NCBI GenBank assembly: GCA_051879515.1
Contig: JBJEME010000055.1
Coordinates: 1,961-65,960, forward strand
Direction of reading: 5' to 3'
DNA length: 64,000 bases
DNA from: Lachnospira sp.
GTDB taxonomy: Bacteria > Bacillota > Clostridia > Lachnospirales > Lachnospiraceae
Shown here: in pieces, positions 30,211 to 42,185 of the stretch
How the letters are laid out: each line of letters opens with the position of its first letter
Numbering within the stretch: position 1 is the first letter of the stretch
Position numbers and translations under genes: made by a program
The notes under the pieces: model-generated
What the model saw: the letters and a program-made list of their open reading frames with translations, nothing else
Told to the model about the DNA's origin: nothing
The model's database searches: none

Positions 30211-32964
30211 TCACTTACAGTCTTTCTGTTTGTGATAAACTCCTGTAACAGTCAGCAGACCGCAGCTTACAAAGAGAAGTACAATCCACAATGCCATACG
30301 GTTGGCATCTCCTGTCTTTGGAGACTCCGCATCAACATCTCCTCCGGTTACGTTCTGGTCAGTGTCAGCAAGCAATTCACCGTATTCGTTTCCGCACAAA
30401 GCACACAATGCCTTGGCAGTGGTTGTTGCCGTTCCACCCTTGCATGTATGTGCGCCGACCTTTGCTTGCTCACTTTCTGCAACAGCAATAACGGGATAGC
30501 CGCATAATGTGTCAGGTATATCAACAGTGCTCATGCCATCTGCTAAATTAATTTCTGTAATGGTCACATTTGTTTCATCAAGGCTGTATTTCACCTGTGA
30601 CGTTGTATCGGGGATTCCTTCCAGAATTCTCAATTCCTTATCTGGCAGGAATATACTTTCAAGGCTTGTACATTCTCTAAAAGCATAATGTGCGATGGAT
30701 GAGACGCTGTATGGGATTGTAACGCTTTCAAGATTTGTGCAATTCCTAAAAGCATAAGCTTCAATGGTTTTAACGCTACTTGGGATTGTAACGTTTTCAA
30801 GGTTTGAACAGTCTCTAAAAGCACTTAGTCCGATGGATGTAACACTGTTTGGTATCGTAAAAGCATTGTTGCTGTTTCCAATAGGATATTGAATCAATAC
30901 AGTCTGTTCCTTATTATACAAAACGCCGTCTTTGGAAGAATAATTGGTATTGTTCTCATCCACTGTAATGCTTTCAAGGTTTGTGCAGTAACGAAAATTG
31001 TAATCTCCAACGGATGTAACACTGCCAGAAATTGTAATGCTTTCAAGGTTTGTGCAATTCCTAAAAGCATAATCTTTAATGGATGTAACACCGTCTGGGA
31101 TTGAAAAGATCTTTCTGCTATTTCCAGAAGGATATTGAATCAATACAGTTTGTTCTTTATCATATAAAACGCCGTCTTTGGAAGAATAATTGGTATTGTT
31201 CTCATCCACTGTAATGCTTTCAAGGTTTGTGCAGTAACGAAAACCGTAATATCCAATGGATGTAACGCTGCCAGGGATTGTAACACTTTCAAGGTTTGTG
31301 CAGTCCCTAAAAGCATAATCATCGATGGTTGTAACGCTGCCAGGGATTGTAAAGGTCTTTTCGCTATTCCCAGCAGGATATAAAATCAATACAGTTTGTT
31401 CTTTATCATATAAAACACCGTCTTTAGAAGAATAATCACTATTGTCTGCATCGACGTTTATGCTTTTAAGGTTTGTGCAGTCTCTAAAAGCATATTCTCC
31501 GATGGATGAAACGCTGTCGGGAATTGTAATGCTTTCAAGGTTTGTGCAGTATCTAAAAGCACAATCTTTGATGGATATAATGCTGTCAGGGATTGTAAAG
31601 GTTTTTCCGCTATTACCGACAGGATATTGAATTAATACAGTTTGATTTTTATCGTATAAAACACCAGTTACATCAGAAGAGTAGTAGGTATTATTTTGGT
31701 TCACAGTAATGCTCTCAAGGCTTGTGCATTCCCAAAAAGCTTCATTTCCGATGGATGAAACGCTCTCTGGAATCGTAATGCTTGTCAGTGAGACACACGA
31801 ACAAAAAGCATCAGCCCCAATTGTTGTAACACCATCTGGGATTGTTACGCTTGTCAGTGAGGTACAATTCTCAAAAGCATAATTCCCAATCGTTGTAACA
31901 CTATTTGGGATTGTTACGCTTGTCAGTGAGACACAATTCTCAAATGCATAATTATCAATCGCAGTAACGCCCTCTGGGATTGTTATGCTTTTTAACGAGG
32001 AACATTCAGAAAATGCCATTACCGGAATCGTAGTAACGCCCTCTGGGATTGTTATGCTTTCAAGGTATGAACTAAACGCAAAAGCATAATCTTTGATGGT
32101 GGTAACAGTGTTCGGGATTTCATAAGATTTTCTATTATTTCCTGAAGGATATTGCATCAATACCGTTTGTTGTTTATCGTATAAAACACCATCTTTAGAA
32201 AGGTAGTTAGCATTATTTTCCCCTACTGTTATGTTTGTAAGTGAGCTGCATTTATAAAATACATAATCCGCAATCGACGTAACGCTATCGGGAATTGTTA
32301 TGCTTGTCAGTGATGTACATTCACCCACTATATTCTCCGTAATCGACGTAACACCCTCCGGGATTGTTAAACTTGTCAGTGATCCACAGCAATAAAATGC
32401 CCAAGGCTCAATCGACGTAACGCCCTCTGGTATTGTTAAATATTTCAGCGAGAGACAGTCAAAAAATGCAGCAGTCTTTATAGTTGTAACGGTGCTTGGA
32501 ATGGTATAGGACTCTCTGTTATTCCCAATAGGATATTGAATTAATACAGTTTGTTGTTTATCAAATAAAACACCATCTTTAGAAGAGTAGTTAGCATTAT
32601 TTTCCGCTACCGTTATGTTTGTCAGTGAGTTACAGCCCCAGAATGCCTGATCCTCAATTGTTGTAACACTGTCTGGAATAGTTACACTTTTCAGGTTATT
32701 ACTCACAAATGTATATGCTTCTATGCCGGTTACCGGCACACCATCTATCTCTTTTGGAATGATTACATCTGTGACTCCATACTCACAGGCTGTTATTAAT
32801 CCGGTAGATTTATCAAAATAAATCGCTCCACCAGTAACCCCCTCTGTCCATTTTACATCAGTATCAGTTGAGGCAGATATGGACACAGTTGGTATTATGC
32901 ATGCAGTCATTACCATAAAGACTGCTGTAACAATAGATGTTAATTTTTTTAATCTATTATTCAT
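30211..32964 (-). CDS. BspA-type leucine-rich repeat surface protein, sortase-anchored
   Basis: Signal peptide, many 23-aa (L-x-S-I-T-I-P-x-S-V-T-x-I-G-x-x-A-F-x-x-C) repeats, SPKTGD plus TM plus basic tail. Confidence 0.93.
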   Translation of the reverse strand: MNNRLKKLTSIVTAVFMVMTACIIPTVSISASTDTDVKWTEGVTGGAIYFDKSTGLITACEYGVTDVIIPKEIDGVPVTGIEAYTFVSNNLKSVTIPDSVTTIEDQAFWGCNSLTNITVAENNANYSSKDGVLFDKQQTVLIQYPIGNNRESYTIPSTVTTIKTAAFFDCLSLKYLTIPEGVTSIEPWAFYCCGSLTSLTIPEGVTSITENIVGECTSLTSITIPDSVTSIADYVFYKCSSLTNITVGENNANYLSKDGVLYDKQQTVLMQYPSGNNRKSYEIPNTVTTIKDYAFAFSSYLESITIPEGVTTIPVMAFSECSSLKSITIPEGVTAIDNYAFENCVSLTSVTIPNSVTTIGNYAFENCTSLTSVTIPDGVTTIGADAFCSCVSLTSITIPESVSSIGNEAFWECTSLESITVNQNNTYYSSDVTGVLYDKNQTVLIQYPVGNSGKTFTIPDSIISIKDCAFRYCTNLESITIPDSVSSIGEYAFRDCTNLKSINVDADNSDYSSKDGVLYDKEQTVLILYPAGNSEKTFTIPGSVTTIDDYAFRDCTNLESVTIPGSVTSIGYYGFRYCTNLESITVDENNTNYSSKDGVLYDKEQTVLIQYPSGNSRKIFSIPDGVTSIKDYAFRNCTNLESITISGSVTSVGDYNFRYCTNLESITVDENNTNYSSKDGVLYNKEQTVLIQYPIGNSNNAFTIPNSVTSIGLSAFRDCSNLENVTIPSSVKTIEAYAFRNCTNLESVTIPYSVSSIAHYAFRECTSLESIFLPDKELRILEGIPDTTSQVKYSLDETNVTITEINLADGMSTVDIPDTLCGYPVIAVAESEQAKVGAHTCKGGTATTTAKALCALCGNEYGELLADTDQNVTGGDVDAESPKTGDANRMALWIVLLFVSCGLLTVTGVYHKQKDCK
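30884..31870 (-). repeat. Intragenic 246-bp (82-aa) tandem modules in the LRR gene
   Basis: GGATAT(T/A)...AATACAGT recurs at 30884, 31130, 31376 and 31622. Confidence 0.85.
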
Positions 32965-34778: not shown

Positions 34779-35396
34779 TTATCCATTTTTTATCGATAAA
34801 TATTCAAGCGTTCCGTCAGGAAGACCGGTGCCTTTTTCAAGAAGGGAGATAAGACCTTTTAATGTGTTTTCTATGTCCTCTGTTGTGGATGGAACAATGT
34901 AATTGTCAAGCTTCACGGCAATTACAATCAATACTATTTCGGCAAGTGCTTCAGGATAATCAAATTCAATCTCACCGCAGGAAATTCCCTGGGAAATAAT
35001 TTCTGTCAATGCCGGTTTTAACTCTGAAACAAGATAATTCAAGTGCTTTTTATGCAGAAGAGCGAGACTCTGCGCACTCTCGTCGGACAAATGTGTGTTG
35101 TTCAAAAAAAGGGCAGATGAACTCCGGCAGGCTTGAAATAACATTGCCATCCGTGTGTAAGAGGATACATTTGTGTTGGCAGCAAGATTTTTAGCTGTCT
35201 GAAGAGGGCGTTCATAGCCTCTTCGAATCAGGGCATCAAAAATCGCATTTTTTGAAGGGTAATAATAGTAAATGCTTCCCTTTCCTATACCGGCTTTATC
35301 TGCAATTTCACTGACTGATATATGCTGTATGTCTTTTTCGTTCATGAGCTGCTGCAATGCATCGAGTATAATGTCTGATTTATTCTGTTCTGCCAT
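34779..35396 (-). CDS. TetR/AcrR family regulator
   Basis: ISVSEIADKAGIGKGSIYYYYPSK. Start at ATG 35396. Confidence 0.92.
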   Translation of the reverse strand: MAEQNKSDIILDALQQLMNEKDIQHISVSEIADKAGIGKGSIYYYYPSKNAIFDALIRRGYERPLQTAKNLAANTNVSSYTRMAMLFQACRSSSALFLNNTHLSDESAQSLALLHKKHLNYLVSELKPALTEIISQGISCGEIEFDYPEALAEIVLIVIAVKLDNYIVPSTTEDIENTLKGLISLLEKGTGLPDGTLEYLSIKNG

Positions 35397-35522
35397 ATCC
35401 TGTTTGACCGCCTTTCTGCAAAATGTGTTTTGTATTTTAACATATTGTTTTTGGTCGGACAATAGACAGGAAAAGAGATATCATAATAATTCTGATATAT
35501 TCATACATATATTTGTATACAC

Positions 35523-35586
35523 AGTAGTTGACCGATGGTCGAACTACGTGATAAAATTAAGAAAAATAAATCGACCGTCGGTCAGA
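35523..35586. promoter_or_regulatory. Two palindromic candidate TetR operators overlapping a SigA promoter
   Basis: GACCGATGGTC (35530-35540, inside a longer GTAGTT...AACTAC repeat) and GACCGTCGGTC (35573-35583). TTGACC 35528 and TGaTAAAAT 35549-35557. Confidence 0.7.
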
Positions 35587-35601
35587 TATATGGAGGTCAC
35601 T

Positions 35602-35952
35602 ATGACATACGCAGAATTTTTTTATGAGATCAAGAACAGATTTATGGAAGCTGATGTGAGCGATATTCATGAACATCTTGCATTCCAGTTTAATGTGGTG
35701 GATTCAGAATGCGGAGGTATATTTTATGTCGAGGTGAAGGACGGAAAGCTTTATGTGGAGCCGTATGAGTATTACGATCGTGATGCAATGTTTATTTCAG
35801 ACCCTGACACATTTATGAAGATTGCTGATGGTAAAACAGACCCTGTAACAGCATTTACTTTTCATAAGCTCAAGGTGGAAGGAAGCATTGATAAGGCACT
35901 ACGCCTGAAAGAAATCATAGATTTGAAGAAAAAACAGGCCGGGAAGGCATAA
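35602..35952 (+). CDS. SCP2 sterol/lipid-binding domain protein
   Basis: FQFNV...GIFYVEVKDG, DPVTAF..KLKVEG. GGAGG RBS before ATG 35602. Confidence 0.88.
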   Translation: MTYAEFFYEIKNRFMEADVSDIHEHLAFQFNVVDSECGGIFYVEVKDGKLYVEPYEYYDRDAMFISDPDTFMKIADGKTDPVTAFTFHKLKVEGSIDKALRLKEIIDLKKKQAGKA

Positions 35953-36033
35953 TACGACAAACAATAATGAATCATAAAAGGGTACAAGACGAACAATAAA
36001 ACATGCCGGGAAGGCATAATACGATAAAAAATA
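35931..36033 (+). repeat. 36-bp imperfect direct repeat, 67-bp period
   Basis: AAAACAGGCCGGGAAGGCATAATACGACAAACAATA (35931) and AAAACATGCCGGGAAGGCATAATACGATAAAAAATA (35998). Confidence 0.85.
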
Positions 36034-36049
36034 CAGGACAGGTGACGGT

Positions 36050-37018
36050 ATGGGAGTTAAAAAGATTATAGGAACAGGTCTTGCATGCGCAGGAGTATTA
36101 GGAGCTGTGGGTGCAGCAGAGATAGCATATTTCTACGGAAGAACTATGATAAGGCAGAAAACAGACATGGGTCGGACGGTTAAGATGGCAGGAACAGACT
36201 GGTCACAGTATAAGGATATGCTTGCAGAACGAAAACAATTCATGCTGGAGCAGCCACATGAGGATGTATATGTGGAAACCTTTGACTGCTTAAGACTCCA
36301 TGGAGTGTATTTCCCGCCAATAAACAATGCCTGTAAGAAGAAACGGGTTGTTATCTGTTTGCACGGTTATACAAGCAGGAGTATGCAGGATTTTACCGGT
36401 CTTACAGATTATTACTTTAAGCGTGGATATGCAATGCTTCAGACAGACGCAAGGGCACACGGCGAGAGCGAGGGCGAGTATATAGGCTTCGGATGTCTTG
36501 ACAGGAAAGATTTACTTAAGTGGATTGACTGGGTGATTGAAAAAATCGGACCTGATACGGAAATCTTTCTTCACGGCATTTCAATGGGAGCTTCTACAGC
36601 ACTTATGGCAAGCGGACTGATGCTTCCTTCGCAGGTAAAAGGAATAATATCTGACTGTGCATTCACTTCCCCTAGGGAAGTATTCACACATGTACTCAAT
36701 ACAATGTACCATCTGCCGGCTTTTCCAATGATTCAGGGAGCAGATGTTGTCAACAGAATATTTGCAGGTTACGGAATGGATGAATGTAATGCGAAACGCG
36801 AGGTGCAGAAGGCTGCAATTCCGATCCTTTTCATACACGGAGAAAAGGATACGTTTGTTCCGGCAAGAATGTGCAGGGAGATATATGAGTGCTGTGCTTC
36901 CCCTAAAAAGCTTTTAATAGTAGAGGGAGCAGCCCATGGAGAAAGCTATTACAAAGATACAGAAAGCTACGAAGCTGCACTTGATGATTTCTTTGAAAAT
37001 ATAAATACTTGGAGGTGA
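36050..37018 (+). CDS. Alpha/beta hydrolase
   Basis: HGY, RAHGES, nucleophile GISMG, IHGEKD, HG. Confidence 0.92.
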   Translation: MGVKKIIGTGLACAGVLGAVGAAEIAYFYGRTMIRQKTDMGRTVKMAGTDWSQYKDMLAERKQFMLEQPHEDVYVETFDCLRLHGVYFPPINNACKKKRVVICLHGYTSRSMQDFTGLTDYYFKRGYAMLQTDARAHGESEGEYIGFGCLDRKDLLKWIDWVIEKIGPDTEIFLHGISMGASTALMASGLMLPSQVKGIISDCAFTSPREVFTHVLNTMYHLPAFPMIQGADVVNRIFAGYGMDECNAKREVQKAAIPILFIHGEKDTFVPARMCREIYECCASPKKLLIVEGAAHGESYYKDTESYEAALDDFFENINTWR

Positions 37019-37022
37019 TTGT

Positions 37023-38420
37023 ATGAAAACACATAAAGGTTATAAGACATATCCTCTTACAAAAGCACAGGCGTTCCATTTTTATTATATGGATAAATGT
37101 CCGAAAAAAGAGGTTGTAAATGTGGGCACGAGTCTGACAATAGAATATGAGCTTGATTTTGATGTGCTAAAGCAGTCCGTATACAAGGCAATCGAGAGGT
37201 GTGAATCAATGCGACTTCGCTTTGTATATGACAACAAACTTAAGCAGTGGTTCCAGTATGTTGTGGAAAAGGAAGACAGGGATATAGAGTTTTTTGATTT
37301 TTCAAATCATACGATGAAAGAAGCTGAGACTATGATGACATCATGGACCAGGATCCCTTTCAAAATGCAGGATTCACCGATGAACCGCATAGTACTTATT
37401 AAGATGCCTGATGGCAGTCAGGGCATGTATGTACTGATTAATCATTTAATAGCAGATGCACAGTCACTGATTATTTTCATGAGAGATATAATTGAGATTT
37501 ACTGTAATGCCAAGTATGAGGGAGTGGAATATCCAAAGGAGATGCGCTCATATATTGAACAGCTTGAAAAGGATCTTGCCTATGAGGCGGGAAGCAAGGC
37601 ACAGCAGAAAGACAGGGAGTTCTTCCAGAACCTTATTGAACAGTCAGAGCCTCTCTATAACGGAATTGATGGTCCGCGGGCACTTGTGGCAGAGCGAAAG
37701 AATAATCCATCTGCGAGGGCAGCTGCATTCATTACGCCATACATGGAATCAGCTCTTGATATATATCACCTTGAGAAAGAACCTACAGCAAGGCTCTTGA
37801 AATTCTGTGAGGAACAGCATGTTTCACTCCAGTGTCTTCTAATAATGGGACTTAGAACATATTTTCAGAAGGCAAATGGTAATGACGATGTGTCCATAAA
37901 TGTGGCTTATGCAAGAAGAGCAACACTTTCAGAGAAGAAGTCAGGTGGAACGAGAATTCACTCATTCCCGTTCAGAACAATTATACCGGAGAACAAGACG
38001 TTTCTTGAAGGAATACATATAATCCGTGACGGGCAGAATGAAATATTCCGTCATGTTAATTATGATCCTGTTGAGTATTTTGCGTACAGGGCGAAGACAT
38101 ATCCTGTGGCTCCCGGAAGAACCTATGAACCTATGTCGCTTACATATCAGCCTATGACCTCAAAGGAACAGGGCTTAAGTAAGCTTGGGGACATTAAGTA
38201 TAAGACAAAATGGTATCCGAACGGTGCCACCACACAGGCACTCTACCTGACAGTTATGCACAGACCGGATGACAACGGACTGGACTTTAATTTTGAGCAC
38301 CAGATAATGGCAATATCAAAAAATACGTTGGATCATTTTTATTATTATATGTGCAGAATTATGTTTAAGGGAATTGAAAATCCTAACATGAAAATAGGCG
38401 ACATCATTAAGCTTACCTGA
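37023..38420 (+). CDS. Stand-alone NRPS-type condensation domain protein
   Basis: YPLTKAQ C1-like motif, CESMRLRF, active site NHLIADA (HHxxxDG variant), FRHVNYD. Confidence 0.85.
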   Translation: MKTHKGYKTYPLTKAQAFHFYYMDKCPKKEVVNVGTSLTIEYELDFDVLKQSVYKAIERCESMRLRFVYDNKLKQWFQYVVEKEDRDIEFFDFSNHTMKEAETMMTSWTRIPFKMQDSPMNRIVLIKMPDGSQGMYVLINHLIADAQSLIIFMRDIIEIYCNAKYEGVEYPKEMRSYIEQLEKDLAYEAGSKAQQKDREFFQNLIEQSEPLYNGIDGPRALVAERKNNPSARAAAFITPYMESALDIYHLEKEPTARLLKFCEEQHVSLQCLLIMGLRTYFQKANGNDDVSINVAYARRATLSEKKSGGTRIHSFPFRTIIPENKTFLEGIHIIRDGQNEIFRHVNYDPVEYFAYRAKTYPVAPGRTYEPMSLTYQPMTSKEQGLSKLGDIKYKTKWYPNGATTQALYLTVMHRPDDNGLDFNFEHQIMAISKNTLDHFYYYMCRIMFKGIENPNMKIGDIIKLT

Positions 38421-38522
38421 TATATGAAAATGATGCGTGGTACCAATTACTATATGACAGAATGAAACATTTGGAAAAGATAAGTGACAAATATTAAAAC
38501 GTAGAAAAAGAAGGGCGACATT

Positions 38523-38753
38523 ATGTTTGAGAAATTAGTTGATATCATCATGAATTATGTTGAAGTGGACAAAGAAGAAATTAAGCCGGAATCAAGATTT
38601 ATGGAGGATTTGGGATTTACTTCCTTTGATTTCATGAGCATGCTAGGTGAGATTGAGGACGAGCTTGACGTAGAGATTGATCAGATTGAGGCTGCCAATA
38701 TCCGAACTGTAAAGGAAGCAGCAGATTATCTTGAGAAGCTTTCTTTAAAATAA
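38523..38753 (+). CDS. Acyl carrier (thiolation) protein
   Basis: 76 aa, acidic, DLGFTSFD with a phosphopantetheinyl Ser candidate at position 34. Confidence 0.92.
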   Translation: MFEKLVDIIMNYVEVDKEEIKPESRFMEDLGFTSFDFMSMLGEIEDELDVEIDQIEAANIRTVKEAADYLEKLSLK

Positions 38754-38774
38754 TTCTTTCCGGGAGGATAATAT

Positions 38775-40310
38775 ATGAATGTAGTAAGCAGCACGATACG
38801 GGATATACTTGTCAGGGCAGAGGCTTCATATGGCTCATGTGATGCCTTCAGATACAAGGCTAAAAGCGAAGATCCGGATGGAAAAAAGACGATTGTTGAG
38901 CATAAAACATACACTGAATTAAAGCAGGATTCGGAGAAATTATCCGCAGCGCTGGAATCAATCGGTGAGAAAAATACCCATATTGCAATTCTTGGAGCAA
39001 CATCATATGAATGGGTAGTCACCTATATGGGAACGGTAAATGGAGGAAATGTGGCGGTTCCCCTGGATGCACAGCTTCCGGCAGATGACATATGTGATCT
39101 TTTGGTGCGGGCAGATGTGACAACACTTGTATATGATGACAGCAAGGCTTTGACAGCGGAAGAGGCTTCTTTGAAATGTCCGGGACTTCGCCATCTTATT
39201 GCGATGAGCAAGGAAGAAGATGATGGCAATATACTGTCATTCTGGAAACTGGTAAATGCACAGGAACAGGGTTATGATTATGCGCCTGATCCTGAGGAAC
39301 TTGCCACAATCATGTTTACCTCGGGAACAACAGGAAAAAGCAAGGGAGTAATGCTATCTCACAGGAACTTGGCAGAAAATGCAACATGTCTTGACATGAA
39401 GATTGAAGAGGGAACAGTTATAATGTCAGTCCTTCCTATTCATCATGCCTATTGCCTGAGCATGGATATCTTAAAGGGACTATCAATCGGCTGCGTCATA
39501 TGCATAAATGATTCGCTGATGCGTGTTGCAAGGAATATAAAGCTCTTTGAGCCGAACATGATACTTATGGTACCGCTTATGATAGAAACTCTTGCCAAAA
39601 AGTTAGAGTCAGCAGCACTTCTTCCTGCACCTATAGTGAAAGCTAAAGTATTCGGAAAGCAGTTTCACACCATATGTAGCGGTGGCGCTTACATGAATCC
39701 GGCTTACATAGATACATTTAAAAAATATGGTATTACAATACTTCAGGGCTATGGCATGACGGAATGTTCCCCTGTAATAAGCACCAATCTGCCATGGAAC
39801 AGTAAAGTTGGTTCTGTGGGAAAGCTTCTGCCTAACTGTGAGGCTAAGACAGTCGATGAGGAACTCTGGGTAAAGGGATCAAGTGTCATGCAGGGCTACT
39901 ATCACATGCCGGAAGAGACTGCAGAAACACTTGCTGACGGATGGCTTAAAACAGGAGATCTGGGATATGTGGACGAGGATGGATTTGTGTTCCTGACAGG
40001 AAGAAAGAAAAATCTCATTATTACTCCGAACGGAGAAAATGTATCTCCTGAGGAAATCGAGAATAAGCTTTCTGAAAAACGTATCATACAGGAGGTTCTT
40101 GTTCGAGAAAGCGACGGTGTCATTGAAGCAGAAATCTATCCTGACTATGAATATGCCGCAAAGAAAAAAGTGAAGGATTTAAGGAGCAACCTTCAGGAAA
40201 TTATAGATGAATATAATACGAATGCACCTCTTTATAAGCGTGTTGTAAAACTTAAGATTCGTGAAACTGAATTCGAGAAGAATACAACGAAAAAGATAAA
40301 GAGATTCTGA
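38775..40310 (+). CDS. Fatty acyl-AMP / long-chain acyl ligase (adenylation domain)
   Basis: MFTSGTTGKSKG, GYGMTE, KTGDLG, GRKK, ENVSPEEIE. Confidence 0.93.
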   Translation: MNVVSSTIRDILVRAEASYGSCDAFRYKAKSEDPDGKKTIVEHKTYTELKQDSEKLSAALESIGEKNTHIAILGATSYEWVVTYMGTVNGGNVAVPLDAQLPADDICDLLVRADVTTLVYDDSKALTAEEASLKCPGLRHLIAMSKEEDDGNILSFWKLVNAQEQGYDYAPDPEELATIMFTSGTTGKSKGVMLSHRNLAENATCLDMKIEEGTVIMSVLPIHHAYCLSMDILKGLSIGCVICINDSLMRVARNIKLFEPNMILMVPLMIETLAKKLESAALLPAPIVKAKVFGKQFHTICSGGAYMNPAYIDTFKKYGITILQGYGMTECSPVISTNLPWNSKVGSVGKLLPNCEAKTVDEELWVKGSSVMQGYYHMPEETAETLADGWLKTGDLGYVDEDGFVFLTGRKKNLIITPNGENVSPEEIENKLSEKRIIQEVLVRESDGVIEAEIYPDYEYAAKKKVKDLRSNLQEIIDEYNTNAPLYKRVVKLKIRETEFEKNTTKKIKRF

Positions 40311-40436: not shown

Positions 40437-42185
40437 CTACGGATTGTTCCGTACTTCGTTCACCGGTGCTATAAAATTGGAAAGAGCTGCTACCATTTTT
40501 GGATGCCGGATTACAAAATGAATAACAGGTGTTTTTATCTTGGAAATCATGACATATTTACCTTCCAGTATGTGAATCTGGATGTTACCAAAAACCGGTG
40601 TTCCCGAATCATGAAACGTATAATTCTGATGAGATTCTGCGTATTCTTGTGTCAGACCTACATGAGCCAGATACTCATCATATGTGTATGTTATATCAGT
40701 CTCACAAAATGCACCTGCAAGTGCCATATGAACGGGATGAAGCTTAAATTCCTCCTCAGACAATACAGCTACATCATCAAGAACAGTGCTGTTTTGCAGA
40801 ACTTCTTCTGAAAGGATGCGCTGCTGCTCAGCAAAAGACAGTATTTTGCTTCGTTCTGTATTATCTATGTTTAGGCGGTCCAGTATATTCTTAAGTAATT
40901 CAGGAGATATTGTATAAACCGGAGGCGATGATAAAATATTGCGTCGGCTCCCGTTTTCCTGCGCATCTGACGCTAAAAATGCCTGAAACAGATTCTTGGA
41001 ATCTGCGCGGAAAATATCCATAAGAGGCAAAGCCTTAGAAAGAAGGTCAGACGCCTTCTGCTTATAATAGGCAACCTCCTCTTTGTTGTTGGTAAGATAA
41101 TATTTGCCGTTCTTATGATAACCATTTATGCATTCACCGGTCAGTGCAACAGTTCCGGAAACATAATTGAAGTGATGATACACATCTGTTGACACATTGG
41201 GAAGATGATAAGGCGAAACCTGTCCAGTCATATAAATAGGTATCCAGCTTTCAAGTCCCAGCATCATCTCCTGAAACGGTCTGTCAATATTGTGAATAAT
41301 ATTCAGATGCAGACCTTTTTTCAGAGACATGGCAATTGCAAACATCCACTTCTTGTTAAAATCCATATCCTCAGCCATATCAACCATCGGCATGTCACTA
41401 CACATAAAAATTGGTTCCTGTGATTTAGAAAGGACTGTCGATTTGAAAAAATCAAGTTCTCCTTTACGCATTTCTTCAATGCCGTAATAATTTCTTGATG
41501 TTGGCAGTTGAAATGGGACGGAAGGCACTTTTAATTCATCAAAATGAATAGCACGGATATATTCATCCAGATTGAATTCATCCAGCTTTTTTAAGAAGTT
41601 CTCCATGTAATCATCAGTCTGTTCAAAGGAGCCGTGATACAGCCATTCACGCAGATGCGACAAATAATCTGAATTCTCATAAATATCGTTCAGAGTACAT
41701 CCAAGCAGAGCGGCAGCTTTTGCTTTGTCAGAAGGCTGGCTGTGTCTGGATACAATAAAGCGGCAGAAGCTGTTACAAAACTCATTAAGATCACTTGGGC
41801 ATCTTTGACCGGACCGGATACGGTACAAATATGACACATCAAAATTAGTAGCTAAAGACATCACTTTCATGTTGATTCCAAGCGTATTGATTATAGTGTT
41901 ATAATTGGCAACGAACTTTTCATAATCCTCATTCTTCTGATTCAAAGTGCTTATGAAATCAGAAGAAACAGTTTCCATTGTTATGTCGGTAATATTTTTT
42001 TCATTGGCGATTTGAACTATGCCGCTAACAAGCTTTTGGAATTGTTCACTGCCGGGCACAGGCTCACGCTCTCCGGTGCGGTAGCGGCTGATTACGGCGG
42101 CAGACAATCCGGAAGCATCTGCCAGCCCCTTTGCGTTGCAACCAAGCTTGTCAATATATTCATTTATCAGTTCGTGAAATGTCAT
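40437..42185 (-). CDS. Large XRE-HTH transcriptional regulator-like protein
   Basis: N-terminal LADASGLSAAVISRYRTGEREP HTH, a second HTH-like segment (SYLYRIRSGQR), and a long unknown C-terminal domain. Confidence 0.7.
   Translation of the reverse strand: MTFHELINEYIDKLGCNAKGLADASGLSAAVISRYRTGEREPVPGSEQFQKLVSGIVQIANEKNITDITMETVSSDFISTLNQKNEDYEKFVANYNTIINTLGINMKVMSLATNFDVSYLYRIRSGQRCPSDLNEFCNSFCRFIVSRHSQPSDKAKAAALLGCTLNDIYENSDYLSHLREWLYHGSFEQTDDYMENFLKKLDEFNLDEYIRAIHFDELKVPSVPFQLPTSRNYYGIEEMRKGELDFFKSTVLSKSQEPIFMCSDMPMVDMAEDMDFNKKWMFAIAMSLKKGLHLNIIHNIDRPFQEMMLGLESWIPIYMTGQVSPYHLPNVSTDVYHHFNYVSGTVALTGECINGYHKNGKYYLTNNKEEVAYYKQKASDLLSKALPLMDIFRADSKNLFQAFLASDAQENGSRRNILSSPPVYTISPELLKNILDRLNIDNTERSKILSFAEQQRILSEEVLQNSTVLDDVAVLSEEEFKLHPVHMALAGAFCETDITYTYDEYLAHVGLTQEYAESHQNYTFHDSGTPVFGNIQIHILEGKYVMISKIKTPVIHFVIRHPKMVAALSNFIAPVNEVRNNP

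What the first reader, a model, noticed from the sequence alone, without database searches (positions are those of the whole stretch)
34779..40310. Clostridial fatty-acid-amide-type biosynthetic cluster with unknown amine substrate
Seen: TetR divergent from SCP2, hydrolase, stand-alone C domain, ACP and acyl-AMP ligase. Established: C-T-A clusters of this layout in gut Clostridia conjugate fatty acids to amines and yield GPCR-active amides (Chang et al., Nat Microbiol 2021). Inference: this strain makes an N-acyl amide. The NHLIADA active-site variant and the product are uncharacterised, and the hydrolase and SCP2 may supply lipids.
Basis: partly seen in the sequence, partly recalled or inferred. 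Interest (0 to 1): 0.65.

Follow-up and report, generated by a model that had tools for sequence, protein, structure and literature searches.

The report
Known-type gut fatty-acid-amide gene cluster
This gut Lachnospiraceae bacterium carries an intact copy of an already published type of small gene cluster that joins fatty acids to amines to make signalling-type lipids; it is an ordinary new member, and which amine it uses remains unknown.

Summary
Window 34779-40310 holds a TetR repressor gene divergent from a five-gene operon: SCP2 lipid carrier, membrane-anchored alpha/beta hydrolase, free-standing condensation (C) protein, ACP and acyl-adenylating ligase.

It belongs to the published Clostridia fatty-acid-amide (FAA) NRPS-like family (Chang 2021; ebf/ecf, Elmassry 2024; OaaC structure, JBC 2026).
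- The C protein matches OaaC (PDB 12kh) at E=1e-106. Other solved C domains reach only about 1e-9.
- Agathobacter rectalis ATCC 33656, the lauroyl-tryptamine producer, has the same six-gene layout, with proteins 61-70% identical.
- The block is syntenic in about 50 Lachnospiraceae species, but patchy: 38 of 301 genera and 10 of 51 species of the window's own genus.

The NHLIADA motif keeps the catalytic His and the Asp. It is a clade-level variant of the published (D/H)HxxxD(S/A/G) motif. Position 1 changed at least 6 times on the tree.

New here:
- A conserved pair of TCGACCnnnGGTCGA operators 43-44 bp apart flanks the operon promoter. These are the only two copies in the 3.14 Mb genome.
- The family splits into a minimal OaaC-type clade and an SCP2/hydrolase/TetR-type clade.

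The amine cannot be inferred. Verdict: new member of a known kind, low to moderate interest.

The parts
34779..35396 (-). TetR/AcrR-family repressor, 205 aa counted from Met23 of the listed ORF. The ORF as listed runs to the TTG at 35462.
   Evidence: - PF00440, 3e-13.
- Orthologues are 203 aa and sit divergently in the same place.
- The best solved relatives are the palmitate-responsive M. tuberculosis AcrR entries 5D18 and 6A4L, E about 7e-9 over residues 7-187 (PMC6768106).
35528..35543 (.). Operator O1, TTGACCGATGGTCGAA. It overlaps the -35 hexamer of the operon promoter.
   Evidence: - Palindrome GACCnnnGGTC.
- Conserved at the same place in 25 loci as the first of a pair.
- The promoter scan gives TTGACC-18-TAAAAT with an upstream TG at 35528-35557.
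35528..35557 (+). Predicted sigma-70-type promoter of the SCP2-to-ligase operon: -35 TTGACC, 18-nt spacer, extended -10 TG-n-TAAAAT.
   Evidence: 10 of 12 matches with TG. This is a prediction only.
35571..35586 (.). Operator O2, TCGACCGTCGGTCAGA. It lies 43 bp after O1, between the -10 box and the SCP2 ribosome-binding site.
   Evidence: - (inverted repeat I1).
- O1 and O2 are the only two GACCnnnGGTC sites in the whole 3.14 Mb genome; the reversed control pattern occurs 14 times.
35602..35952 (+). SCP2-fold lipid carrier, 116 aa.
   Evidence: - PF02036, 9e-13.
- Solved relatives are archaeal and mammalian SCP2 / non-specific lipid-transfer proteins.
- 66% identical to A. rectalis ACR74787.1.
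36050..37018 (+). Membrane-anchored alpha/beta serine hydrolase, 322 aa.
   Evidence: - Hydrolase_4, 1.2e-17.
- Ser178 (in GISMG), Asp267 and His296 are invariant in 50 orthologues.
- A hydrophobic helix at about residues 6-28 is followed by conserved Arg/Lys.
- Solved relatives are esterases and monoacylglycerol lipases.
37023..38420 (+). Free-standing FAA-type condensation protein, 465 aa, motif NHLIADA at residues 140-146.
   Evidence: - PF00668, 1.3e-40.
- OaaC (PDB 12kh): E=1e-106 and 39% identity.
- A. rectalis ACR74789.1: 61% identity.
- AF2 model with pLDDT 89.8 and a C-domain fold, TM 0.75-0.81.
- It is the only C domain in the genome.
38523..38753 (+). Dedicated acyl carrier protein, 76 aa. 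The phosphopantetheine serine is Ser34, in DLGFTSFDF.
   Evidence: - PF00550, 4.7e-11.
- It scores below the cut-offs of the housekeeping ACP models.
- 70% identical to A. rectalis ACR74790.1.
38775..40310 (+). Fatty-acid-adenylating ANL enzyme, 511 aa, expected to load the ACP.
   Evidence: - PF00501, 7.5e-66.
- Read from the sequence: core motifs TSGTTGKSKGV, GYGMTE, TGDLG, GRKKNLII and a C-terminal Lys.
- 61% identical to A. rectalis ACR74791.1 and 49% to the C. eutactus oaa ligase.

Best explanation
This is a TetR-controlled fatty-acid-amide (FAA) synthase operon of the published gut-Clostridia NRPS-like type.

Core chemistry, inferred by homology to reconstituted systems:
- The ligase adenylates a medium- or long-chain fatty acid and loads it on the phosphopantetheine arm of the dedicated ACP.
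- The ACP is primed by the genome's single Sfp-type PPTase, which is encoded on another contig.
- The free-standing C protein uses His141 of NHLIADA to catalyse attack of a free small-molecule amine on the acyl-ACP thioester. This releases an N-acyl amide.

Accessory steps, inferred and untested anywhere:
- The membrane-tethered serine hydrolase has its catalytic domain probably on the cytoplasmic side. It frees fatty acids from ester lipids.
- The SCP2 protein carries those fatty acids to the ligase.

Regulation, from sequence conservation:
- TetR dimers bind two TCGACCnnnGGTCGA operators. One covers the -35 box and the other lies just downstream of the -10 box, so binding shuts off the operon.
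- A lipid ligand, probably a fatty acid, is the likely inducer.

The amine acceptor, and therefore the product, cannot be read from the sequence.
For: Domains and gene order.

C protein versus characterised enzymes:
- OaaC (12kh) scores E=1e-106 over residues 4-463. The next solved C domains score about 1e-9.
- OaaC, with its ligase and ACP, makes FAAs in vitro and does not accept oleoyl-CoA.
- Locus L085 is A. rectalis ATCC 33656 (ACR74787/89/90/91). It has the same layout of TetR, then SCP2, hydrolase, C, ACP and ligase, and the same operator pair. Identity to the window's operon proteins is 61-70%.
- That cluster is reported to make lauroyl tryptamine.
- ebf/ecf, with SCP2-like protein, hydrolase, C, T and A, make acyl-putrescines and acyl-lysines.
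- In the tree the window falls inside the FAA family, in the SCP2/hydrolase clade.

Other support:
- Synteny of all six genes in about 50 species.
- Catalytic His and Asp are kept in all homologues with a readable motif.
- The hydrolase triad is invariant.
- An Sfp-type PPTase is present in the genome.
- The operators are conserved in position and spacing and are unique in the genome.
- The promoter overlaps O1.
- The nearest solved TetR relatives respond to palmitate.
Against: - Nothing here is biochemical.
- Identity to characterised C proteins is only 39% (OaaC) and 61% (A. rectalis). The window's subclade (NHLI[A/S]DA) contains no characterised member.
- The roles of the hydrolase and SCP2 have not been shown for any family member. 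The hydrolase could instead proof-read the ACP or hydrolyse the product.
- The TetR ligand assignment rests on 39-bit matches.
- The predicted TetR promoter is not covered by an operator.
- The hydrolase topology rests only on the positive-inside rule.
Confidence: 0.85

Rival explanations
1. The chemistry is the same (acyl-ACP plus amine gives an N-acyl amide), but the native purpose is the bacterium's own. It would detoxify or buffer antimicrobial free fatty acids, or make a membrane lipoamine or lipoamino acid, rather than produce a host GPCR ligand. A fatty-acid-sensing TetR would switch the operon on when free fatty acids rise.
For: - A dedicated local repressor whose nearest solved relatives respond to palmitate, with operators unique in the genome.
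- The lipid-handling SCP2 and a membrane-bound hydrolase are always co-inherited with the core in this clade.
- ebf/ecf products are simple acyl-putrescines and acyl-lysines.
- No exporter is conserved next to the operon.
Against: - There are no data on fatty-acid toxicity or induction.
- Published family members give GPCR-active products.
- The two purposes do not exclude each other.
Confidence: 0.25
2. The C protein forms an ester or transfers the acyl group to a non-amine acceptor (O-acyl transfer to an alcohol, sugar or lipid), so the product is not an amide.
For: - The C-domain superfamily includes ester-forming members (general knowledge).
- Position 1 of the motif (N) and the last position (A) differ from the canonical HHxxxDG.
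- The subclade is uncharacterised.
Against: - The protein lies inside the FAA clade, between two amide-forming characterised enzymes.
- Only PF00668 is hit.
- Alanine at the last motif position is reported in 36% of FAA C domains.
- A. rectalis (HHMVVDA) also has alanine there.
Confidence: 0.05
3. The operon is a silent or decaying accessory island with no product in this strain.
For: - Patchy distribution: 10 of 51 species in the genus and 38 of 301 genera.
- A 67-bp tandem duplication lies between SCP2 and the hydrolase.
- No PPTase gene lies in the cluster.
Against: - All six reading frames are full length, with invariant catalytic residues.
- The promoter and operators are intact.
- An Sfp-type PPTase exists in the genome.
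Confidence: 0.05

Closest known systems
Agathobacter rectalis ([Eubacterium] rectale) ATCC 33656 FAA cluster (ACR74787-ACR74791). It is reported to make lauroyl tryptamine (Chang et al. 2021, as cited in PMC10871352).
   Same: - Identical gene order: divergent TetR, then SCP2, hydrolase, C, ACP and ligase.
- The same pair of GACCnnnGGTC operators 43 bp apart.
- The operon proteins are 61-70% identical.
- Same major clade of the C tree.
   Different: - The C motif is HHMVVDA, against NHLIADA here.
- It sits in a different, well-supported subclade. The common ancestor with the window spans 51 of 76 leaves.
- Its TetR is split by a frameshift in that genome record.
- Amine preference therefore cannot be transferred.
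OaaC / OaaACP / OaaA of Coprococcus eutactus (oleoyl aminovaleric acid; PDB 12kh; PMC13310621).
   Same: - Free-standing C, ACP and ligase in the same order.
- The C proteins align end to end, E=1e-106.
- The catalytic His and the Asp are kept.
- The region aligned with OaaC's extra stretch around residues 209-230 is also present in the window's protein, with only a 2-residue gap.
   Different: - Only 39% identity.
- It belongs to the other major clade (motif DHRxxDS), which lacks SCP2 and TetR; only 3 of 12 sampled loci have a hydrolase homologue nearby.
ebf/ecf clusters of Enterocloster bolteae and E. clostridioformis (N-acyl putrescines and N-acyl lysines; PMC10871352).
   Same: The same accessory set of SCP2-like lipid-transfer protein and hydrolase in front of C, T and A.
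   Different: - ebf/ecf carry their own PPTase gene. Here the PPTase lies on another contig.
- A Hungatella hathewayi cluster with the same PPTase-containing layout is 55% identical in C.
Starter (lipo-initiating) condensation domains of NRPSs, for example CDA-C1 and RzmA.
   Same: - Same fold: TM 0.75-0.83 to the model.
- A fatty-acyl donor.
- Published as the nearest canonical class.
   Different: - Those domains are part of multidomain synthetases.
- They take acyl-CoA or acyl-ACP donors and a carrier-bound amino acid as acceptor.
- Sequence identity is only 14-17%.

Membership tests
Clostridia FAA NRPS-like cluster (Chang 2021 / C_FAA of PMC13310621) | Free-standing condensation protein, not fused to A or T domains | tested here: met
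   - A 465-aa ORF with PF00668 covering 3-444 of 456 model positions.
- It is the only C domain in the genome.
Clostridia FAA NRPS-like cluster (Chang 2021 / C_FAA of PMC13310621) | The C protein belongs to the FAA clade rather than to canonical NRPS C classes | tested here: met
   - OaaC scores 1e-106, against about 1e-9 for other solved C domains.
- 61% identity to the A. rectalis ATCC 33656 C protein.
- The tree places it inside the family.
- No canonical C domains were included in the tree.
Clostridia FAA NRPS-like cluster (Chang 2021 / C_FAA of PMC13310621) | Non-canonical motif (D/H)HxxxD(S/A/G), with the second His and the Asp conserved | tested here: met
   - NHLIADA keeps the His and the Asp and ends in Ala.
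- Position 1 is N rather than D or H. This variant is seen in 42 of 170 close homologues and in several lineages.
Clostridia FAA NRPS-like cluster (Chang 2021 / C_FAA of PMC13310621) | Adjacent stand-alone carrier protein with a phosphopantetheine serine | tested here: met
   - PF00550, 4.7e-11.
- Ser34 in DLGFTSFDF, read from the sequence.
Clostridia FAA NRPS-like cluster (Chang 2021 / C_FAA of PMC13310621) | Adjacent stand-alone adenylating enzyme homologous to the FAA ligases | tested here: met
   - PF00501, 7.5e-66.
- 61% identical to ACR74791.1 and 49% to the oaa ligase.
- The core motifs are present.
Clostridia FAA NRPS-like cluster (Chang 2021 / C_FAA of PMC13310621) | A PPTase is available to prime the ACP | tested here: met
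   One Sfp-type PPTase of 241 aa lies on contig C75. It is not in the cluster.
Clostridia FAA NRPS-like cluster (Chang 2021 / C_FAA of PMC13310621) | The ligase loads a fatty acid on the ACP, and the C protein condenses it with a free amine to an N-acyl amide | not testable with these tools
   This needs in vitro reconstitution or heterologous expression with LC-MS.
Clostridia FAA NRPS-like cluster (Chang 2021 / C_FAA of PMC13310621) | The product is active on host GPCRs | not testable with these tools
   The product is unknown.
SCP2/hydrolase-bearing subtype (A. rectalis, ebf/ecf) | An SCP2-like carrier and an alpha/beta hydrolase directly upstream of C-T-A | tested here: met
   -.
Canonical multimodular NRPS | A, T and C domains fused in modules, with a carrier-bound acceptor | tested here: not met
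   All the domains are separate proteins. There is a single C domain and no second carrier protein in the cluster.
TetR-family local repressor with a palindromic operator | A divergent TetR gene plus conserved palindromic sites in the shared intergenic region | tested here: met
   - TCGACCnnnGGTCGA occurs twice, 43-44 bp apart, in 25 loci.
- The two copies here are the only ones in the genome.
- Binding and the ligand were not tested.

The most novel reading that the evidence does not exclude
The NHLI[A/S]DA subclade holds the window, three named MAGs, and an uncultured Lachnospiraceae species seen on more than a thousand metagenomic contigs. It may use an amine not yet found for this family and so make a new FAA. 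The whole SCP2/hydrolase clade may be a fatty-acid-inducible module, switched by a dedicated TetR through the conserved double operator, whose first purpose is to handle exogenous fatty acids.
Probability: 0.3. Interest if true: 0.45.

Novelty: new member of a known kind. Interest (0 to 1): 0.25.

Why it matters
FAA clusters of gut Clostridia make lipids that act on host receptors. They have been linked to inflammatory bowel disease, some depleted and some enriched. This window adds one more intact, uncharacterised member.

Points of use to the field:
- The family splits cleanly into a minimal C-ACP-ligase clade (OaaC type) and a clade that always carries SCP2 and a membrane hydrolase, and usually a TetR.
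- The second clade has a conserved double operator. This gives a direct handle for asking what induces FAA production.
- Amine choice clearly cannot be read from the HHxxxDG-like motif.

None of this changes the current picture of the family.

Tried and rejected
- Chang et al. 2021 itself is not held. Its content was taken from papers that cite it.
- I suspected that the very abundant 87%-identical homologue (P0121) was A. rectalis. Cluster names show only uncultured 'Lachnospiraceae bacterium' MAGs, so that idea was rejected.
- A. rectalis ATCC 33656 was instead found through its 3,449,685-bp contig and confirmed by accession names.
- I suspected that G194 (a cluster containing a PPTase gene) was Enterocloster. 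It is Hungatella hathewayi WAL-18680.
- The Foldseek PDB library predates 12kh. The structure search therefore confirmed only the general C-domain fold.
- A search for further operator sites, which might have revealed an amine-supplying regulon member, found none.
- A search for a group II (aromatic amino acid / glutamate) decarboxylase found nothing above the cut-off. The strain probably does not itself make tryptamine, tyramine, dopamine or GABA by that route, which does not identify the amine.
- The flanking genes (chemotaxis receptor, 582-aa XRE-type protein, MscS channel) are not conserved with the cluster and were excluded from it.
- A call using a locus id in the 'of' field failed.
- Pocket-residue comparison to predict the amine was not attempted. 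The published acceptor-site residues are given only in a figure.
Full report
**What is there**

Between 34779 and 40310 the window holds six intact genes: a minus-strand TetR gene and, divergent from it, five plus-strand genes.

Pfam assigns them as follows, and NCBIfam agrees:
- TetR_N, 3.8e-13
- SCP2, 9.3e-13
- Hydrolase_4 / Abhydrolase_1, 1.2e-17
- Condensation, 1.3e-40, full length
- PP-binding, 4.7e-11
- AMP-binding, 7.5e-66

The carrier protein scores below the cut-offs of the housekeeping ACP models, so it is a dedicated ACP.

Gene starts need small corrections.
- TetR most likely begins at Met23 of the listed ORF, giving 34779-35396 (205 aa). Orthologues are 203 aa, and a predicted minus-strand promoter lies inside the extension.
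- SCP2 is 35602-35952, behind a GGAGG ribosome-binding site.

Read from the sequence, the ligase has the ANL core motifs: TSGTTGKSKGV, GYGMTE, TGDLG, GRKKNLII and a C-terminal Lys in TKKIKR. The ACP has its serine in DLGFTSFDF.

**Family assignment**

The C protein matches PDB 12kh at E=1e-106 over residues 4-463. The next solved C domains reach only about 1e-9. 12kh is OaaC of Coprococcus eutactus.

What is published about OaaC (PMC13310621):
- It is a free-standing FAA condensation protein.
- With its ligase and ACP it makes oleoyl-, palmitoleoyl- and lauroyl-amides of aminovalerate and GABA in vitro.
- It does not use oleoyl-CoA.
- The paper also describes the family's non-canonical (D/H)HxxxD(S/A/G) motif. 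The second His is more than 99% conserved. The last position is Ser in 42%, Ala in 36% and Gly in 17% of sequences.

The Elmassry et al. preprint (PMC10871352) adds:
- ebf/ecf consist of a PPTase, an SCP2-like lipid-transfer protein, a hydrolase, C, T and A.
- They make acyl-putrescines and acyl-lysines.
- 713 of 8,427 Clostridia genomes carry such clusters.

**Characterised anchors found here**
- Locus L064 is 99% identical to the 12kh sequence, and its ligase falls in a Coprococcus eutactus cluster.
- Locus L085 lies on a 3,449,685-bp contig. Its proteins are ACR74787.1, ACR74789.1, ACR74790.1 and ACR74791.1 of Agathobacter rectalis ATCC 33656. This is the strain whose cluster is reported to make lauroyl tryptamine.
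- That cluster has the same order as the window (TetR, then SCP2, hydrolase, C, ACP, ligase). Identities to the window's proteins are SCP2 66%, hydrolase 61%, C 61%, ACP 70% and ligase 61%.

**Phylogeny**

I built a tree of 74-76 C proteins. It has two major clades.
- Clade A holds OaaC. Its motif is DHRxxDS, and it is usually a bare C-ACP-ligase set.
- Clade B holds the window, A. rectalis and Hungatella hathewayi. Its motif ends in DA, and it carries SCP2 and hydrolase, usually with a divergent TetR.

The window sits in a strongly supported six-member subclade with NHLI[A/S]DA (SH-aLRT 100). A. rectalis sits in a different subclade with HHM[VI]VDA. Their common ancestor spans 51 of the 76 leaves. 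No characterised enzyme falls in the window's subclade, so the amine cannot be transferred by homology.

**The motif**
- NHLIADA occurs in 35 of 170 close homologues. DHLTLDA is the commonest form, with 69.
- Position 1 (D, N, H or S) changes at least 6 times on the tree. The last position changes twice.
- The catalytic His and the Asp are kept in every sequence with a readable motif. H141 and D145 are invariant in the 36-sequence alignment.
- N at position 1 is best read as a tolerated variant of the usual D.

**Structure**

An AlphaFold model built on 36 homologues has pLDDT 89.8 and pTM 0.86. It matches NRPS condensation domains, including the starter domains CDA-C1 and RzmA, at TM 0.75-0.83. 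The structure library predates 12kh.

**Conservation and distribution**
- All six genes are syntenic in about 50 Lachnospiraceae loci, while the flanking genes are not.
- One genome per genus: 38 of 301 genera of the family have a homologue.
- In the window's own genus, 10 of 51 species have one, at no more than 79% identity. Homologues with 88-91% identity lie in species that did not appear in that genus scan.
- This looks like an accessory operon exchanged among Lachnospiraceae.
- An 87%-identical version with the same layout is very common in metagenomes, listed in 1,299 index blocks. It belongs to an uncultured species named only 'Lachnospiraceae bacterium'.

**Regulation (new here)**

The TetR-SCP2 intergenic region holds two palindromes, GACCGATGGTC (35530-35540) and GACCGTCGGTC (35573-35583).
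- In 25 loci the same pair is found 42-45 bp apart, with consensus TTGACCnnnGGTCGAA and TCGACCnnnGGTCGAA.
- 43 of 63 loci have at least one copy, almost always at this position.
- A. rectalis has the pair too.
- In the window's 3.14 Mb genome these are the only two matches. The reversed control pattern occurs 14 times.
- O1 overlaps the -35 box of a good predicted promoter, TTGACC-18-TAAAAT with an upstream TG. O2 lies between the -10 box and the ribosome-binding site.
- This is the classic arrangement for repression by a TetR dimer pair.

The nearest solved relatives of the TetR are the M. tuberculosis AcrR entries 5D18 and 6A4L (E about 7e-9, residues 7-187). Palmitate releases that protein from its DNA (PMC6768106). 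Bacillus FadR also aligns over the full length, weakly. A fatty-acid inducer is thus plausible but is only a hint.

**Accessory proteins**
- The hydrolase keeps Ser178 (GISMG), Asp267 and His296 in all 50 orthologues.
- It has an N-terminal hydrophobic helix followed by an invariant basic stretch. By the positive-inside rule the catalytic domain would face the cytoplasm.
- Its solved relatives are esterases and monoacylglycerol lipases.
- SCP2 matches mammalian and archaeal SCP2 lipid carriers.
- Their role in supplying fatty acids is an inference, and it has not been shown for any family member.

**Genome context**
- The genome has one C domain.
- It has one PPTase, of the Sfp type (241 aa), on another contig.
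- It has no group II decarboxylase above the cut-off.

**Verdict**

The cluster is a new member of a known kind, and the product is unknown.

**Limits**
- No canonical C domains were used as an outgroup.

Noticed in passing
L085:3847-4681 (Agathobacter rectalis ATCC 33656 genome record): The TetR gene next to the lauroyl-tryptamine cluster is split between two reading frames. Residues about 28-122 are in one frame and about 109-224 in another, while the two operators are intact. If this is real and not a sequencing error, the operon would be derepressed in the type strain.
   Followed up: partly
window 35931-35966 and 35998-36033: A 36-nt direct repeat, 92% identical and spaced 67 bp apart, duplicates the 3' end of SCP2 including its stop codon in the SCP2-hydrolase spacer. 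In relatives such as L059 this spacer is only about 12 bp.
   Followed up: partly
window 40437-42185 (minus strand): A 582-aa protein has only an N-terminal HTH_3 match and no other family hit. It is convergent with the ligase gene and is not conserved next to the cluster in other genomes.
   Followed up: no
L059-L061, and L004 (CAMECH010000041.1) / MDD74515xx proteins: A very abundant uncultured Lachnospiraceae species carries an 87%-identical cluster. Copies of it are deposited in MAGs labelled Bacteroides sp. and Treponema sp., which looks like mis-binning of this contig.
   Followed up: partly
G000 contig C75 (L063:1480-2205, minus strand): The only ACPS-superfamily hit in the 94%-complete genome is an Sfp-type PPTase of 241 aa next to a chemotaxis receptor gene. 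No short AcpS-type gene was detected, so this one enzyme may serve both fatty-acid synthesis and the FAA carrier protein.
   Followed up: partly
L078:1945-2376: In one relative (G112) a MerR-family regulator, not a TetR, precedes SCP2. The regulator of this operon type has therefore been exchanged at least once.
   Followed up: no
window 30211-32964 (minus strand): A 917-aa surface protein made of many leucine-rich (BspA-like) repeats, with a C-terminal membrane anchor, lies upstream of the chemotaxis receptor gene.
   Followed up: no
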